A DNA stretch of 64,000 bases from Picochlorum sp. SENEW3 (taxonomy: Eukaryota). The position numbers were made by a program, and so were the translations under genes. The notes below the pieces were generated by a model. It saw nothing but the letters and a program-made list of their open reading frames with translations. It ran no database searches and was not told the DNA's origin. Of this stretch, positions 2,857 through 63,072 are shown one piece after another. The DNA lies in the NCBI GenBank assembly GCA_034226945.1, contig CP120453.1, positions 1,178,001 to 1,242,000 on the forward strand. Reading direction: 5' to 3'. Within the stretch, counting starts at the first letter, position 1. Each line of letters begins with the position of its first letter.

Positions 2857-3366
2857 TGTACTCTTACTGTGTATGAGAAATCGCAATCCAACGACACCGA
2901 AAATGAAAAATTGTGCTGTGAGTCGTGTCGTCAAAATGAAAACGCTGATGTGAAAATTGCGCTAAATCCTATATTCTCCACCTCGTTGTGAAATGAAAGT
3001 TTCTGAAAATACTCTTGGGGACAGAGTTTTCCCCAGGAACGATGAAAAATGGTGTCCAGACCGAGACAGTCACAGGCGATCAACCAATGACTCGAAAACT
3101 CTCGTGACTGCACGATAGTCCCAACAGGCTCAAATATCACCGCAGTATTACAATAATGAAATGATACAAACCCCAACGATGCAGGCCAAGGGGCTACTAA
3201 CGCAAACGCGATGCCGAATGCAGATGATGCAGTAGATACGAATTGGATCGTATCTAATCACATGGACAGTAGCGTCCCATCAAGCAACGCAGTGGATGGT
3301 GTACAAGAAGGATAGAAGCGTGCGATTTTTAATTTTTAAATATCTAAACTTTAGACCATGAATACT

Positions 3367-3867
3367 CTACTCATCAGCAATGACAATGTCACCGGAATCA
3401 ATCTGCTCCTGAATCTCTCTAGGGTCTTGGTTCTCAACGGTGCAGCCTACAGAGACGCACGTGCCTAAGATTTCCTTGCAGGTTCCAGAGAAGGTGGCCG
3501 CGCATGATCTGTCTCTCATGATGCGGGCAATTTCCTTCACATCTTCGAGAGAAATATTACCATCGTGAGGAACGTTAGGATTCTTTTTTCTGTCTCTTGG
3601 TGGCTCCTTGAGGGCACGGATAACCAAAGATCCTGCTGATGGGACAACAGACACCTTGGCCTGTCTGTTCTGCACAGTCAATTTGACTGTGACACGGAGA
3701 CCCTTCCACTCCTTGGCAGTCTGCTTGGCAATGTCTTCTCCAATCTTCTTTGGAGAGAGACCCAATGGACCAATCTTTGGAGCTAAAGAGGATGCGGCAC
3801 CGACCTCTCCTCCGGTGGCACGCACAAATACCTCGAGAACCTCGTTTGGGTCAAACTTTGGAGGCAT
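3367..3867 (-). CDS. RPL12: 60S ribosomal protein L12 (uL11)
   Basis: [10 protein letters not shown]...[30 protein letters not shown]...[14 protein letters not shown]; 166 aa. Confidence 0.98.
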
Positions 3868-3890
3868 CTTTCAGCTGAATTTATAAATAC

Positions 3891-4674
3891 CTGAAGATAA
3901 AAAAACTAACAGAGTCAGCATTATCGATGTATAATCACTCTGTGTCAATGTGTTGAAAAGTTGGCGACGCCATGGCACGCTGGTCTCGTGTTCTGGCTTT
4001 GTATGGGCCACGATCCTTCTCATCTTTCTCATATCTATTTTCAATGCAATTTTTCATGCCATGCATTCAGCATCGGTATAAAAATCACGAGTCTGCGTCG
4101 GCTGGTTCATGGCCTGCCGCCAACAGGGCTCCTCATTCTTCTTCGACACGTATGGCATCGCCAAGAGACGAGGATGCTTATGATACAATGCGTTTTCACC
4201 TGTTAAACAGTACCCATTCAGCGTATATGCCTCCCTGTGGATGCTCAGGAGGTACGCGAAAGACAAGAACGCCGCCCGAGAGTGAAGCCGTCTGAACACA
4301 ATCCTGCTGCCACGAGTGTGCCATTAGTATGCAGATTCGACGTACCTTTACTATGTAGTAATTGAAATACAATTCACTGATTGGCAGTAGGGCTACAGAG
4401 GCTTCATATAGTGTAGAATCCGTCGAAGGAATGTGTCTCATGCTGGTCCTATCAGAAGACGAGTTTGATGGGGGAGAGATGTCGTTCCCATCTTGAAGAG
4501 GTTAGCCCATCAACCAGTTGTCTGGACGGGTGATTCAAAGTATTGCCCGTGAAAGACCATAACAACACTGTGTCACAGCGCTGTTCTCTGTGTTATTTGC
4601 TTTTCACGTTTGTTATTGTGTCAATATCGTCTTTTATGTCTGTTGATGTGCGCGTGAGGCGTATTTGGTCATAC
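3891..4674 (-). other. Probable long 5'-UTR intron(s) of RPL12 containing structured RNA
   Basis: Minus-strand acceptor GCTGAC..TTTTTTTATCTTCAG| at 3891, 23 nt before the ATG. Best donors are AAG|GTACGT (4345) and AAG|GTATGA (4674). Several hairpins lie inside. Confidence 0.55.
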
Positions 4675-4812
4675 CTTTTTGTTTTGAAAGGCTCTTGAGT
4701 GAAAAAACGGCAGGGTATTTTCCGTCCTTTTCGTCGGTTCAGACTGTTTTTGGTGACACGAGGTGCCATTTTAATTTTTTTTGAAAGAATAGACACGTGC
4801 CTGTGAGCCAAT

Positions 4813-5523
4813 ATGAGCCCAGGCCCGAGCCAGAGTTCTGGCAAAGGGGCAGAGAATGTCTCCAAAGGGGCTTTGACGAGCAATGAAGTCAACTTTTTAG
4901 TATACAGATACTTGCTGGAGTCGGGATTTGGTCATGCAGCATTTGTGTTTGGATGTGAGAGTGATGTGGATAGAATCGATATAGATGGCAAGGATGTGCC
5001 AGTGGGGGCTTTGGTGAGTTTTGTGCAAAAGGGATTTCAGATGATGGAGTTGGAGGCGAATTTGAATGCTAGCGGGAATGATGTGTACGGTAAATATGTA
5101 CAGTTTACTGCGGATGATATACTGACGAAAGACTTGTCTGAACTGAGGGAAATTGCAAAAGAGATTCAGGATGAGGAGGAAGAATGCGAAGATGAGGAAG
5201 AGGACACCAAAGGTGTCGCGTCGCGAGCTGTGCTGCCTCGGTTGGATGTCGATGAAGCAGATGCAAACAAATCCAAGGTAGAGGAAGCTCCAGTTGTGAA
5301 GGAGGAAGAACCTGGCAGGCCAGCATCCTTGCATCATGATGCCATGGATGTTGATCAATCGCCAGAAAAGAATGAAGAACAAGGCGATGGCATCAACCCA
5401 GTAGATTCTGAGAAAAGTAAAGTAGTCGAGGTAGATCATGGGGCAGAAATGGCAGCTCCTGACGCGGATGGTTTGCAACCTGATGCAGGAGGGGTTCAGA
5501 GCACTGGTTCATTACAGCAATAG
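4813..5523 (+). CDS. LisH-domain protein, TBL1/HOS15/SIF2 N-terminal type, with acidic tail and no WD40
   Basis: LTSNEVNFLVYRYLLESGFGHAAFVFGCES...VPVGALVSFVQKGFQMMELEANL matches the TBL1-family LisH/oligomerisation region. Confidence 0.85.
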   Translation: MSPGPSQSSGKGAENVSKGALTSNEVNFLVYRYLLESGFGHAAFVFGCESDVDRIDIDGKDVPVGALVSFVQKGFQMMELEANLNASGNDVYGKYVQFTADDILTKDLSELREIAKEIQDEEEECEDEEEDTKGVASRAVLPRLDVDEADANKSKVEEAPVVKEEEPGRPASLHHDAMDVDQSPEKNEEQGDGINPVDSEKSKVVEVDHGAEMAAPDADGLQPDAGGVQSTGSLQQ

Positions 5524-60839: not shown

Positions 60840-63072
60840 TTAGAAGAGTCTGTGGATTGATAGTATGAATGCAGCAAGGAAAAGATGCATGCTTTTTGTT
60901 ATGGACCCAGTAGCACTAGATGCTATTGGTGCCTGAGGATTTGAATCGGATGGAGGATTTGGTGGGAGCAGAGGCCTCGAAGGAGATGGACTCGAAGGAG
61001 ATGGACTTGGTGATGGACTCGAAGGAGATGGACTTGGTGATGGACTAGGTGATGGACTTGGAGATGGACTTGGAGATGGACTTGGTGATGGGCTTGGTGA
61101 TGGACTTGGTGATGGGCTGGGTGATGGACTGGGAGATGGACTTGGTGATGGGCTGGGAGATGGACTCGAAGGAGATGGACTTGGTGATGGACTGGGAGAT
61201 GGACTAGGTGATGGGCTGGGAGATGGGCTGGGAGATGGACTGGGAGATGGGCTGGGAGATGGGCTGGGAGATGGACTGGGTGATGGACTTGGCGGAGGAG
61301 GAGGACTTGGTGGCGGAGGAGGGCTTGGCGGAGGAGGAGGGCTTGGTGGAGGAGGAGGGCTTGGCGGAGGAGGAGGGCTTGGCGGAGGAGGAGGACTTGG
61401 TGGAGGAGGAGGACTTGGTGGAGGAGGAGGGCTTGGCGGAGGAGGAGGACTTGGCGGAGGAGGAGGACTTGGCGGTGGAGGAGGGCTTGGCGGTGGTGGA
61501 TTGGGAGGACTTGGTGGAGGAGGCTGCGGTGGTGATGGTGGAATCACAATGGTGGGATCGGTGTTTCCAGAGTATACATTGATATCTGACCAATGTGCTG
61601 ATGTGAGCTCTGACAGGCTTTCTGAAACTGTATGAGGTGCATTATATGTATTGATAATCACGTCTCGCACTGTGTCAAATGTAGAGGCAACGGTTGAGTT
61701 ATCTCTGTCTCTAGTGCATGGCATTGTCACTGGGCTCACAGGATTGTTTGGGAAATAGTCCCACCGATGACCATTAAGCCACCTGGACAGAGTAGATACA
61801 TTTCATGTCAGATAGATTAACTATTGGAGATCAAGAATAAGAGAATGGATCAGAAGTGCAGCCGTACCACTCAATTCGCACAGTTTCTGCGCAGTTTCTG
61901 CGCACCCCATTATACAGGCCTGTGTCGCCTGAAATTCTCCTGAGGACAAAAGTGAAATCATTCCAACTATTCAGGCGTACTTTATCACTCCATGAAGGGA
62001 TCTGTTTTGGTTCTGGGCCGGGAAAACCGAAGGCTAGATATGATCCAAGGGGAGAGAAGGGCCAGACATTCGGTGTAGGGTTGAGCTCTGTGACTGGACC
62101 ATCTGCATACAGGTAAACATATGGACCATATTGCCTGAACTCCTCATCGCGATTATCAAATCCCGCGTGTAACCTGAAAGATGATTCTCCAGATCCAGTA
62201 GGTCCGTAGCCAATCTCCACGGCCACCTCAGTGGCTCGAGTACAGAAACTCGTGTCAGTAGAACAGTTTGAGTTTGGCGTCTGTAGGACCCATTCTTCAG
62301 GGATGTACAAGCTTGCTGTGACGACCACTCCATTACCGACTGGTATGTGCTCATTATATGTGTATTTCATACCCTGCCAATTATATTTTGGCGCTGCAAG
62401 GCTTTCATCGCCGAAGGACTCGACCCTTGAATTTGGTTGACCATTTGGCCCAGTGGTGGCTCTCAGTGTGGCAGACCTCGTAAAAAATGACGAAAGATAT
62501 TCAAACTTGTCAGGAGGATACAAGTCGGTGTACCAGATATTCTCTTTGAAACTCCTTTGAGTAACTAATGGCATGGCTGTGTTGACAGAGGGATACCTGT
62601 ATGTAATCAGTGGTGGTGGGACAAATCCTGTCATTCCAATGCTCGCCTCTCCGTCTGATTTTCTGGCTATGATCCGCGCATTTAGGCGTATTTGGCTCGA
62701 TGATGTAGGTATATACTTCTTCATCAGTCGCAAATATCTCCCACTGGAAATTGAGACGAGTTCATACCGGTACCAAGTTGTCTCTGGAGGGTCGACTGCA
62801 AGACAGATAATAATTCTTAGTCAACAGGCACCTTGACAGAAATTCTTCACAGGCGCATATGCCCCCGCACCTGTTACATTTGCTCCCCCCACGTTTTGAA
62901 ATAACTCCCCCAGCTTTAGGCCCCTTGGCATTCGGAACAGCGCTTCTTTTCCCAGGTTCCACAGCAGGTCGTTGTACAACGCCACAGGGGGCGCTGACTG
63001 GACAGCATGTGGCCATTGAACGAGGCAAACGAGCAACAACTTTGCTGTCGCAATCGCTCTAACATAACCCAT
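60840..63072 (-). CDS. Chimeric hydroxyproline-rich cell-surface glycoprotein; exons 63072-62871, 62795-61868, 61782-60840
   Basis: Signal peptide, ~380-aa globular region, (SPPPPP)n then (SP)n stalk, and a small-residue stretch plus hydrophobic C-terminus resembling a GPI signal. Confidence 0.8.
60975..61545 (-). repeat. Coding tandem repeats: ~18-bp units (SPPPPP) and 6/12-bp units (SP)
   Basis: Plus strand ggaggaggacttggcgga repeats and gatggacttggt / gatgggctggga repeats. Confidence 0.95.

What the first reader, a model, noticed from the sequence alone, without database searches (positions are those of the whole stretch)
3891..4674. Oversized, highly structured 5'-UTR intron in RPL12: candidate intronic ncRNA or autoregulatory splicing element
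Seen: a strong acceptor 23 nt before the ATG, but the best donors are 455 nt (4345) and 784 nt (4674) away, whereas other introns here are ~60-155 nt. The interval has no convincing CDS. It has a 13-bp long-range stem (3961-3973 with 4152-4164, G-U only on the RPL12 strand) and hairpins at 4093-4126, 4221-4257, 4465-4513 and 4526-4550. Two hairpins abut the same heptamer GAAAGAC (4258, 4551). An ATGAGGA...CTGA C/D-like pair lies at ~4136-4067 (minus), and ACA triplets follow the terminal stem. The 4526-4550 hairpin pairs better on the plus strand, so the strand evidence is mixed. Known: Chlamydomonas snoRNAs cluster in introns, vertebrate RPL12 hosts an H/ACA snoRNA, and C. elegans rpl-12 autoregulates by unproductive splicing. 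Inference: a retained functional RNA that I cannot assign to a known family.
Basis: partly seen in the sequence, partly recalled or inferred. Interest (0 to 1): 0.7.

Follow-up and report, generated by a model that had tools for sequence, protein, structure and literature searches.

The report
Long ribosomal-protein intron with zipper stem
This is a normal long first intron of a ribosomal-protein gene in a tiny green alga, not a hidden small RNA; it probably folds back on itself to bring its two ends together, and it shares a short sequence tag with the introns of other ribosomal-protein genes.

Summary
The RPL12 5'-UTR intron is real but 455 nt long (4345-3891), not 784. An RNA-like run has a contig joining 4346 to 3890 that runs unspliced across 4674. 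The length is ordinary for ribosomal-protein (RP) genes here: RPS9 447, RPL40 440, RPL26 439, RPS26 432 nt. No snoRNA support: no Rfam hit, a C/D guide at chance level, no H/ACA pocket, no similarity to orthologous introns. The ensemble instead predicts a long interrupted helix, 4323-4258 with 3962-4028, placed like a yeast zipper stem; 3 of 430 shuffles match it. It is absent from three orthologous introns and shows no compensatory change. The new observation: RP introns of this genome share an orientation-free GC word, GCCG[ACT]C (22 vs 3.4 expected; held-out 7 vs 1.5; RPL12 4 vs 0.5), and a palindrome G[GC]CG[AT]CG[GC]C in 8 of 25 RP introns. Best reading: an RP-type long first intron with a splice-site-bridging fold and a probable RP-regulon element. 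Function is inferred, not shown.

The parts
3367..3867 (-). RPL12 (uL11) coding sequence, 166 aa, no intron inside
   Evidence: PF00298, PF03946
3868..3890 (-). 23-nt leader part of exon 2
3891..4345 (-). 455-nt GT-AG 5'-UTR intron
   Evidence: joint skipping 455 nt with CT..AC ends in run X3, none in DNA-like run X1
3914..3918 (-). branch-point-like CTGAC, followed by a T tract and the acceptor
   Evidence: sequence; use as branch point inferred
4258..4323 (-). 5' arm of the predicted zipper helix, starting 22 nt after the donor
   Evidence: prediction only
3962..4028 (-). 3' arm of the predicted zipper helix, ending 47 nt before the branch A; 50 pairs in all, 31 in the outer continuous part (4323-4285 with 3962-3999)
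   Evidence: prediction only
4152..4164 (.). second, one-mismatch copy of the palindrome; other arm of the 13-bp stem, predicted to pair locally instead
4271..4292 (.). two GCCG[ACT]C words (4287-4292, 4271-4276)
4097..4121 (.). two GCCG[ACT]C words (4116-4121, 4097-4102), which are also predicted to pair with each other in the 4093-4126 hairpin
4067..4136 (-). C/D-box-like word pair; no convincing guide, judged chance
4346..4380 (-). probable short AT-rich exon 1; its start is inferred, not mapped
   Evidence: exonic side of the joint; AT 0.70; same layout as RPS12, RPL40; no ATG in 4346-4400
4381..4812 (.). region shared with the divergent gene (promoter and leader, inferred); holds the 4465-4513 and 4526-4550 hairpins and the donor-like word at 4674, for which no joint was listed
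4813..5523 (+). divergent LisH-domain gene; same head-to-head layout in L002-L006
   Evidence: PF08513

Best explanation
It is the long first intron typical of ribosomal-protein genes in this compact algal genome, 455 nt, with two working layers. (1) RNA: after transcription, 4323-4258 pairs with 3962-4028, loops out the middle and leaves about 69 nt between donor, stem and branch point, so a spliceosome used to ~60-190-nt introns sees a short one (zipper stem). (2) Sequence tag: the intron carries several GCCG[ACT]C words and a G[GC]CG[AT]CG[GC]C palindrome shared with other RP introns; they occur in both orientations, so they are most likely DNA sites just downstream of the start site for a factor that co-regulates RP genes, an AP2-domain protein being one candidate. 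Shown: the splice joint, the length class, the motif enrichment. Predicted: the helix. Inferred: the start site, the effect on splicing, the DNA level of the motif, and the factor.
For: Joint 3890/4346. Four other RP first introns of 432-447 nt among 25 RP introns; 7 non-RP introns 61-193 nt. A 5'-UTR intron at the same place in L002 (294 nt) and L003-L006 (415-423 nt), ends read from splice words. Zipper pairs mostly at p 0.8-1.0; meets the 42-85-nt linker rule of PMC12350175; 3 of 430 shuffles give 31 bp or more; arm duplex -65.6 vs -43.3 kcal/mol, 0 of 150 shuffles, stronger sense than antisense (arms chosen after seeing the fold). 0 of 21 listed strain substitutions fall in the 77 nt of the outer arms (p 0.015, post hoc) and none in the six motif sites. 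Motif: 22 vs 3.4 in 11 other RP introns, in 10 of 11; RPL12 4 vs 0.5 (0 of 500); 0 in non-RP introns; held-out RP introns 7 vs 1.46 (2 of 1000); not enriched in 85 kb of general non-coding-like DNA; 16 sense vs 23 antisense; only 9 of 37 sites pair with another site. Nine AP2-domain matches over cut-off in G000.
Against: No zipper by the same rule in L002, L003, L006, and in only 2 of the 11 other RP introns of 250 nt or more (RPL26, RPS26). Two strain changes break pairs of the inner helix (4017, 4025) and none is compensatory. Whole-intron z is only about -2. One joint, one contig, one run guessed to be RNA; runs X4 and X9 do not reach the junction. The motif is not RP-exclusive: of 16 other motif clusters in 864 kb, 3 are at RP genes, 1 at an RRM gene, 7 in a gene-poor stretch; of 23 inspected loci of the genome's 53 GGCG[AT]CGCC sites only RPS10 was an RP gene and 21 sites lay in long open frames. 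L002's intron has one strict word (96 of 500 shuffles) and neither ortholog has the palindrome. In Chlamydomonas no distinct motif or classical enhancer was found in enhancing introns (PMC7419008). I had seen GGCGGC in RPL12 before fixing the motif, so RPL12 is not a blind test.
Confidence: 0.62

Rival explanations
1. The intron is an autoregulatory switch: free uL11 binds the folded intron and blocks splicing, and the retained intron, with its many upstream ATGs, makes the message unproductive.
For: Structured RP introns serve feedback in yeast (PMC12350175, passage); rpl-12 feedback in C. elegans is recalled. The intron holds 13 ATGs, so retention would be unproductive. An unspliced contig over 3863-4323 exists in X3. 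The intron position is kept in relatives.
Against: No alternative strong donor inside the intron, no second joint, no conserved element in orthologous introns (83, 274 and 285 of 300 shuffles score as well). The proposed cassette 4392-4346 has no ATG, so it would not change decay.
Confidence: 0.16
2. The intron hosts a divergent or orphan snoRNA (C/D at 4136-4067, or H/ACA ending near 3950) released after splicing.
For: C- and D-like words 70 nt apart. Intronic and orphan snoRNAs are described in Ostreococcus (PMC7671301, abstract and passages). Only 3 listed changes in 4056-4166 across runs. Rfam covers algal snoRNAs poorly (own knowledge) and my scans had no positive control.
Against: No Rfam match. 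Best guide 9 nt before a non-canonical D', reached by 13 of 60 shuffles; no C/D pair in L002, L003, L006. No 12-nt perfect rRNA complement next to a D box. H/ACA: three weak two-hairpin shapes with at most a 7-nt pocket, none in L002/L003; zero guide-pocket candidates, against 10 of 100 shuffles.
Confidence: 0.1
3. Only the presence and length of a first intron matter (general intron-mediated enhancement); the helix and the GC words are by-products of CpG-rich, unconstrained DNA near a strong promoter.
For: No sequence conservation between species; 3891-4199 is more variable between strains than the upstream region (21 substitutions in 309 nt vs 11 in 658 nt); L003 vs L006 intron differs at 15 of 414 sites, like four-fold sites (4 of 90); CpG o/e 0.93-1.01 in RP introns vs 0.65 genome sample; dispersed, motif-free enhancement in Chlamydomonas.
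Against: The motif exceeds shuffles that keep CpG content, also in held-out introns; the palindrome is in 8 of 25 RP introns vs 11 per Mb; the helix exceeds shuffles.
Confidence: 0.12

Closest known systems
Long RP-gene introns with zipper stems in Saccharomyces (RPS17B, RPL7A, RPS11A; PMC12350175, passages read)
   Same: 400-500-nt intron in a genome of short introns; a stem linking donor and branch point within a 42-85-nt linker; poor sequence conservation between species
   Different: Here the helix is only predicted, longer (31-50 pairs), in a 5'-UTR intron of a green alga; no probing or mutation data
Intron-mediated enhancement by first introns of highly expressed Chlamydomonas genes, RP genes included (PMC7419008, passages read)
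   Same: Promoter-proximal intron of a highly expressed algal gene
   Different: That study found no shared motif; here RP introns share one
GCC box and DRE/CRT sites of plant AP2/ERF factors (motif names recalled)
   Same: GCCG[ACT]C covers both core words; AP2-domain genes are present
   Different: Sits inside RP first introns and often as a palindrome with a one-base spacer; no binding shown
Intronic snoRNAs of Ostreococcus and Chlamydomonas; vertebrate RPL12-hosted H/ACA RNA (the last recalled)
   Same: Long intron in a housekeeping gene; box-like words
   Different: No guide, no family match, no conservation
C. elegans rpl-12 unproductive splicing feedback (recalled)
   Same: Same gene, long intron
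   Different: No alternative splice site or conserved element found

Membership tests
spliceosomal GT-AG intron, 455 nt | a spliced join with GT..AG ends in RNA, absent from DNA | tested here: met
   one contig of X3; none in X1
spliceosomal intron, 784 nt or cassette exon | a join from 4674 or into 4392 | tested here: inconclusive
   none listed in 4 runs and one contig crosses both unspliced; contigs can drop short or rare forms
zipper stem (PMC12350175 definition) | 6 bp or more, 10 nt or more from the donor, 20 nt or more from the branch point, linker 42-85 nt | tested here: met
   31 bp, linker 69, mean pair probability 0.97; branch point inferred
zipper stem (PMC12350175 definition) | support from in vivo probing | not testable with these tools
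   needs DMS data
zipper stem (PMC12350175 definition) | compensatory changes or presence in orthologs | tested here: not met
   not required by the definition, and yeast zippers are also poorly conserved
box C/D snoRNA | C and D boxes 50-200 nt apart | tested here: met
   4136 and 4070
box C/D snoRNA | 10-21-nt guide to rRNA next to D or D' | tested here: not met
   9 nt, 13 of 60 shuffles as good; snRNA targets not tested
box H/ACA snoRNA | two hairpins, H box, ACA, and a bipartite guide pocket 14-16 nt from a box | tested here: not met
   own scans without a positive control
any Rfam family | score at the gathering threshold | tested here: not met
snoRNA (either class) | a stable processed small RNA | not testable with these tools
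   only contigs were available
RP autoregulatory intron | an unproductive isoform that responds to the protein's level | not testable with these tools
   no alternative joint seen; no perturbation data
AP2/ERF GCC or DRE element | core word enriched beyond base content; AP2 proteins present | tested here: met
AP2/ERF GCC or DRE element | binding by an AP2 protein and effect on transcription | not testable with these tools
   needs binding and reporter assays

The most novel reading that the evidence does not exclude
This alga has moved the control sites of its ribosomal-protein regulon into long first introns: a palindromic G[GC]CG[AT]CG[GC]C / GCCG[ACT]C element read by a dimeric, perhaps AP2-type, factor, with zipper folds added so that the enlarged introns still splice well. 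RPL12 would be the clearest case, tying for the densest non-coding cluster in 864 kb.
Probability: 0.35. Interest if true: 0.55.

Novelty: new member of a known kind. Interest (0 to 1): 0.3.

Why it matters
As flagged (a hidden ncRNA) it matters little: the evidence does not support that. What remains is a yeast-like split of intron lengths in a green alga, with RP genes keeping long first introns, a predicted zipper fold, and a shared intronic motif that my paper searches did not find described. If the motif is a real RP-regulon site it names a testable handle on ribosome-gene control in a compact alga and a candidate part for raising transgene expression.

Tried and rejected
Rfam on the window, the region and 13 related loci: nothing above chance. 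No run on record as RNA was listed; kinds are guesses. Parts without cover in X4 and X9 were not used as evidence. Local alignment of the intron with L002, L003, L006: not above shuffles. YY1-like reading of the ATGGC/GCCAT words: dropped, since ATGGC is not clearly enriched in RP introns (15 vs 9.8, 31 of 500), these words are common in non-coding DNA generally, and G000 showed only three weak single C2H2 matches. Mimicry of the uL11 site in rRNA by the 4093-4126 hairpin: a likeness by eye to a recalled structure, not tested further; the ensemble pairs that hairpin in another register. GAAAGAC pair: one copy is part of the zipper's inner helix, the other lies outside the intron; 11 copies in the window. 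The 4465-4513 hairpin is built of GATGG/CCATC words, which are about 1.8-fold enriched in non-coding DNA generally. Covariation: L003-L006 are 98% alike by column, too close to test; no relatives at middle distance were obtained (one metagenome scan). Land-plant and other distant RPL12 loci show no such intron by eye. Earlier findings: none returned. The Ostreococcus supplement holds no 'RPL12' or 'L12' string, but genes there go by locus ids, so this does not exclude RPL12 as a host.

Full report
Setting. The window lies on contig C1 of a 13.85-Mb, 14-contig genome. RPL12 runs on the minus strand from 3867 to 3367 without a coding intron, head to head with a LisH-domain gene starting at 4813. 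That the organism is a Picochlorum-like green alga is my inference from genome size and gene style; no call names it. Published Picochlorum genomes have mean introns of 88 and 101 nt (PMC6141220, passages).

Which intron. Two strong donor-like words exist, at 4345 and 4674. Four runs were laid on 3200-5000 (4 of 19 listed; all contigs, RNA status guessed). One joint is listed: in X3 a contig joins 3890 to 4346, skipping 455 nt with GT-AG ends. The same contig continues without gaps past 4392, 4674 and 5000. The DNA-like run X1 shows no joint; X4 and X9 do not reach the junction. So 4345 is a used donor. A rare or short form from 4674 cannot be excluded from contigs. The 40 nt before 4345 are 70% AT, as before the first donors of RPS12, RPL40, RPL7A and RPL27, and 4346-4400 has no ATG while 4346-4675 has six. 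I infer a short exon 1 and read 4381-4812 as the region shared with the divergent gene. Syntenic relatives have an intron at the same place: L002 294 nt, L003-L005 415 nt, L006 423 nt (ends read from splice words, no RNA).

Is it oversized? I delimited by hand 25 introns of RP genes found by family searches and by codon usage plus Pfam. They run from 97 to 455 nt; RPS26 432, RPL26 439, RPL40 440 and RPS9 447 match RPL12. Three 5'-UTR donors (P2, RPL30, RPL31) are uncertain. Seven non-RP introns met on the way are 61-193 nt. RPL21 and RPS10 were left out of the counts because I could not fix their intron ends. The length is thus a trait of RP genes here, as in budding yeast, where long introns are mostly 400-500 nt (PMC12350175, passages).

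Is it a small RNA? Rfam gives 0 matches at gathering score in the window and two chance-level matches in the region. Against the genome's own rRNA, the longest minus-strand complement is 12 nt with a G-U and lies in the T tract. The C/D pair exists, but its best guide is 9 nt before a non-canonical D'; 13 of 60 shuffles do as well, and L002, L003, L006 have no pair. A shape scan found three weak H/ACA-like folds with at most a 7-nt pocket, and a guide-pocket scan found none on either strand, against 10 of 100 shuffles. These scans are my own and had no positive control. Orthologous introns do not align above chance. Ostreococcus does have intronic and orphan snoRNAs (PMC7671301: abstract, passages, one supplement search), so an orphan is not excluded.

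Structure. The 784-nt span is not more stable than shuffles. The 455-nt intron is, modestly and on the sense strand: z -1.7 to -2.6 in four runs, like RPL26 (-2.6) and RPL40 (-2.2). The 13-bp stem is rare by chance (43 of 3739) yet has pair probability 0.0. Its 3' arm is taken by a longer helix, 4323-4258 with 3962-4028: 50 pairs, 5 of them G-U, mostly at p 0.8-1.0. The outer 31 pairs start 22 nt after the donor and end 47 nt before the branch-like A, linker 69 nt, which fits the published zipper rule. With splice ends held, 63 of 430 shuffles form some zipper, 16 reach 16 bp and 3 reach 31 bp (the span condition was mine). Strain differences in X3 avoid the outer arms (0 of 21 listed substitutions in 77 of 433 nt; one further difference was not shown), while the flanks are highly variable. 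Against this: two changes break inner pairs, none compensates, and the rule finds no zipper in L002, L003, L006 or in 9 of 11 other long RP introns.

A shared motif. In the 11 other RP introns of 200 nt or more, the top 6-mers against dinucleotide shuffles are CCGCCG, GCCGCC and GACGGC (z 8.4, 7.7, 6.6; null maximum 6.3). GCCG[ACT]C on either strand occurs 22 times against 3.4, in 10 of 11 introns; 4 times in RPL12 against 0.5; 6 times in five short RP introns against 0.9; never in seven non-RP introns; 0.61 per kb in a 200-kb genome sample against 6.6 per kb. Eight introns of six RP genes collected later give 7 against 1.46 (2 of 1000); three of those genes had first come up as motif clusters, so the test is only partly blind. 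GCCGCC and GCCGAC are below expectation in 85 kb of general non-coding-like DNA (the gene-poor C6 stretch left out). The palindrome G[GC]CG[AT]CG[GC]C is in 8 of 25 RP introns against 11 per Mb. Orientation is balanced (16 vs 23) and only 9 of 37 sites pair with another site, which favours a DNA site. Limits: in 864 kb, 17 non-coding clusters were found; RPL12 ties for the top, 3 others are at RPL13A, RPS7 and RPL22, and 13 are not at RP genes. Of 53 GGCG[AT]CGCC sites genome-wide I inspected 23 new loci; 21 sites lay in long open frames and one locus, RPS10, was an RP gene with two sites. The genome has nine AP2-domain matches over cut-off; that such proteins bind GCC and DRE words is recalled, and no binding is shown.

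How it most likely works. Transcription starts just above 4346; a factor bound to the intronic GC sites helps drive RP-level expression (inferred); the nascent intron zips its ends together so that donor and branch point are close (predicted); splicing at 4345/3891 yields a leader without upstream ATG (joint shown). Odds: this reading 0.62, autoregulation 0.16, neutral long intron 0.12, orphan snoRNA 0.10.

Literature. Ten searches. None of the listings for searches showed a paper on an intronic RP motif in this lineage; I saw titles and abstract starts only, and the library lacks most subscription papers. Passages were read in PMC8226300, PMC8047918 and PMC7419008, the last reporting no shared motif in enhancing Chlamydomonas introns. 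The C. elegans rpl-12 feedback and the vertebrate RPL12 snoRNA are recalled.

Verdict. Observation partly confirmed; ncRNA reading not supported; a new member of a known kind, with one lead worth a follow-up, the RP-intron motif. Interest 0.3.

Noticed in passing
L095, L097 and window 3905-3911: The 5' regions of P1, P2 and RPL12, all stalk-protein genes, share CTGTTAG shortly before an acceptor-like site, and P1 and P2 share a further near-identical 20-nt stretch across it.
   Followed up: no
L119 (RPS9 first intron): A perfect 14-bp inverted repeat spans about 300 nt of the 447-nt intron.
   Followed up: partly
L088-L119, L141, L200, window: RP intron lengths seem to cluster at 257-279 nt (5 introns) and 432-455 nt (5 introns), about 180 nt apart, near a nucleosome repeat; small sample, may be chance.
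   Followed up: no
L089, L101, L114, L163, L225: Translation and ribosome genes are often neighbours: RPS25/RPL30, RPS19/eIF5A and RPS10/Brix head to head, RPL27/RPL31 tail to tail, RPL40 beside a NOP58-like gene (some names read by eye).
   Followed up: no
L096 (RPLP0 first intron): A perfect C-box word with CTGA words downstream, but no good rRNA guide (8 nt).
   Followed up: partly
L190-L199 (G000:C6:700001-800000): A gene-poor stretch with repeated sequence holds 7 of 17 motif clusters.
   Followed up: no
L006 vs L003, between the LisH gene and RPL12: A segment of the intergenic region is inverted between these close relatives while the intron stays 96% identical.
   Followed up: partly
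window 3970-4490: Run X1 holds both alleles at many places, so a mixed or heterozygous sample; the 3' half of the intron is several times more variable than the coding sequence.
   Followed up: partly
window 60937-61632: An open frame made of a long Gly-Asp-Gly-Leu repeat.
   Followed up: no
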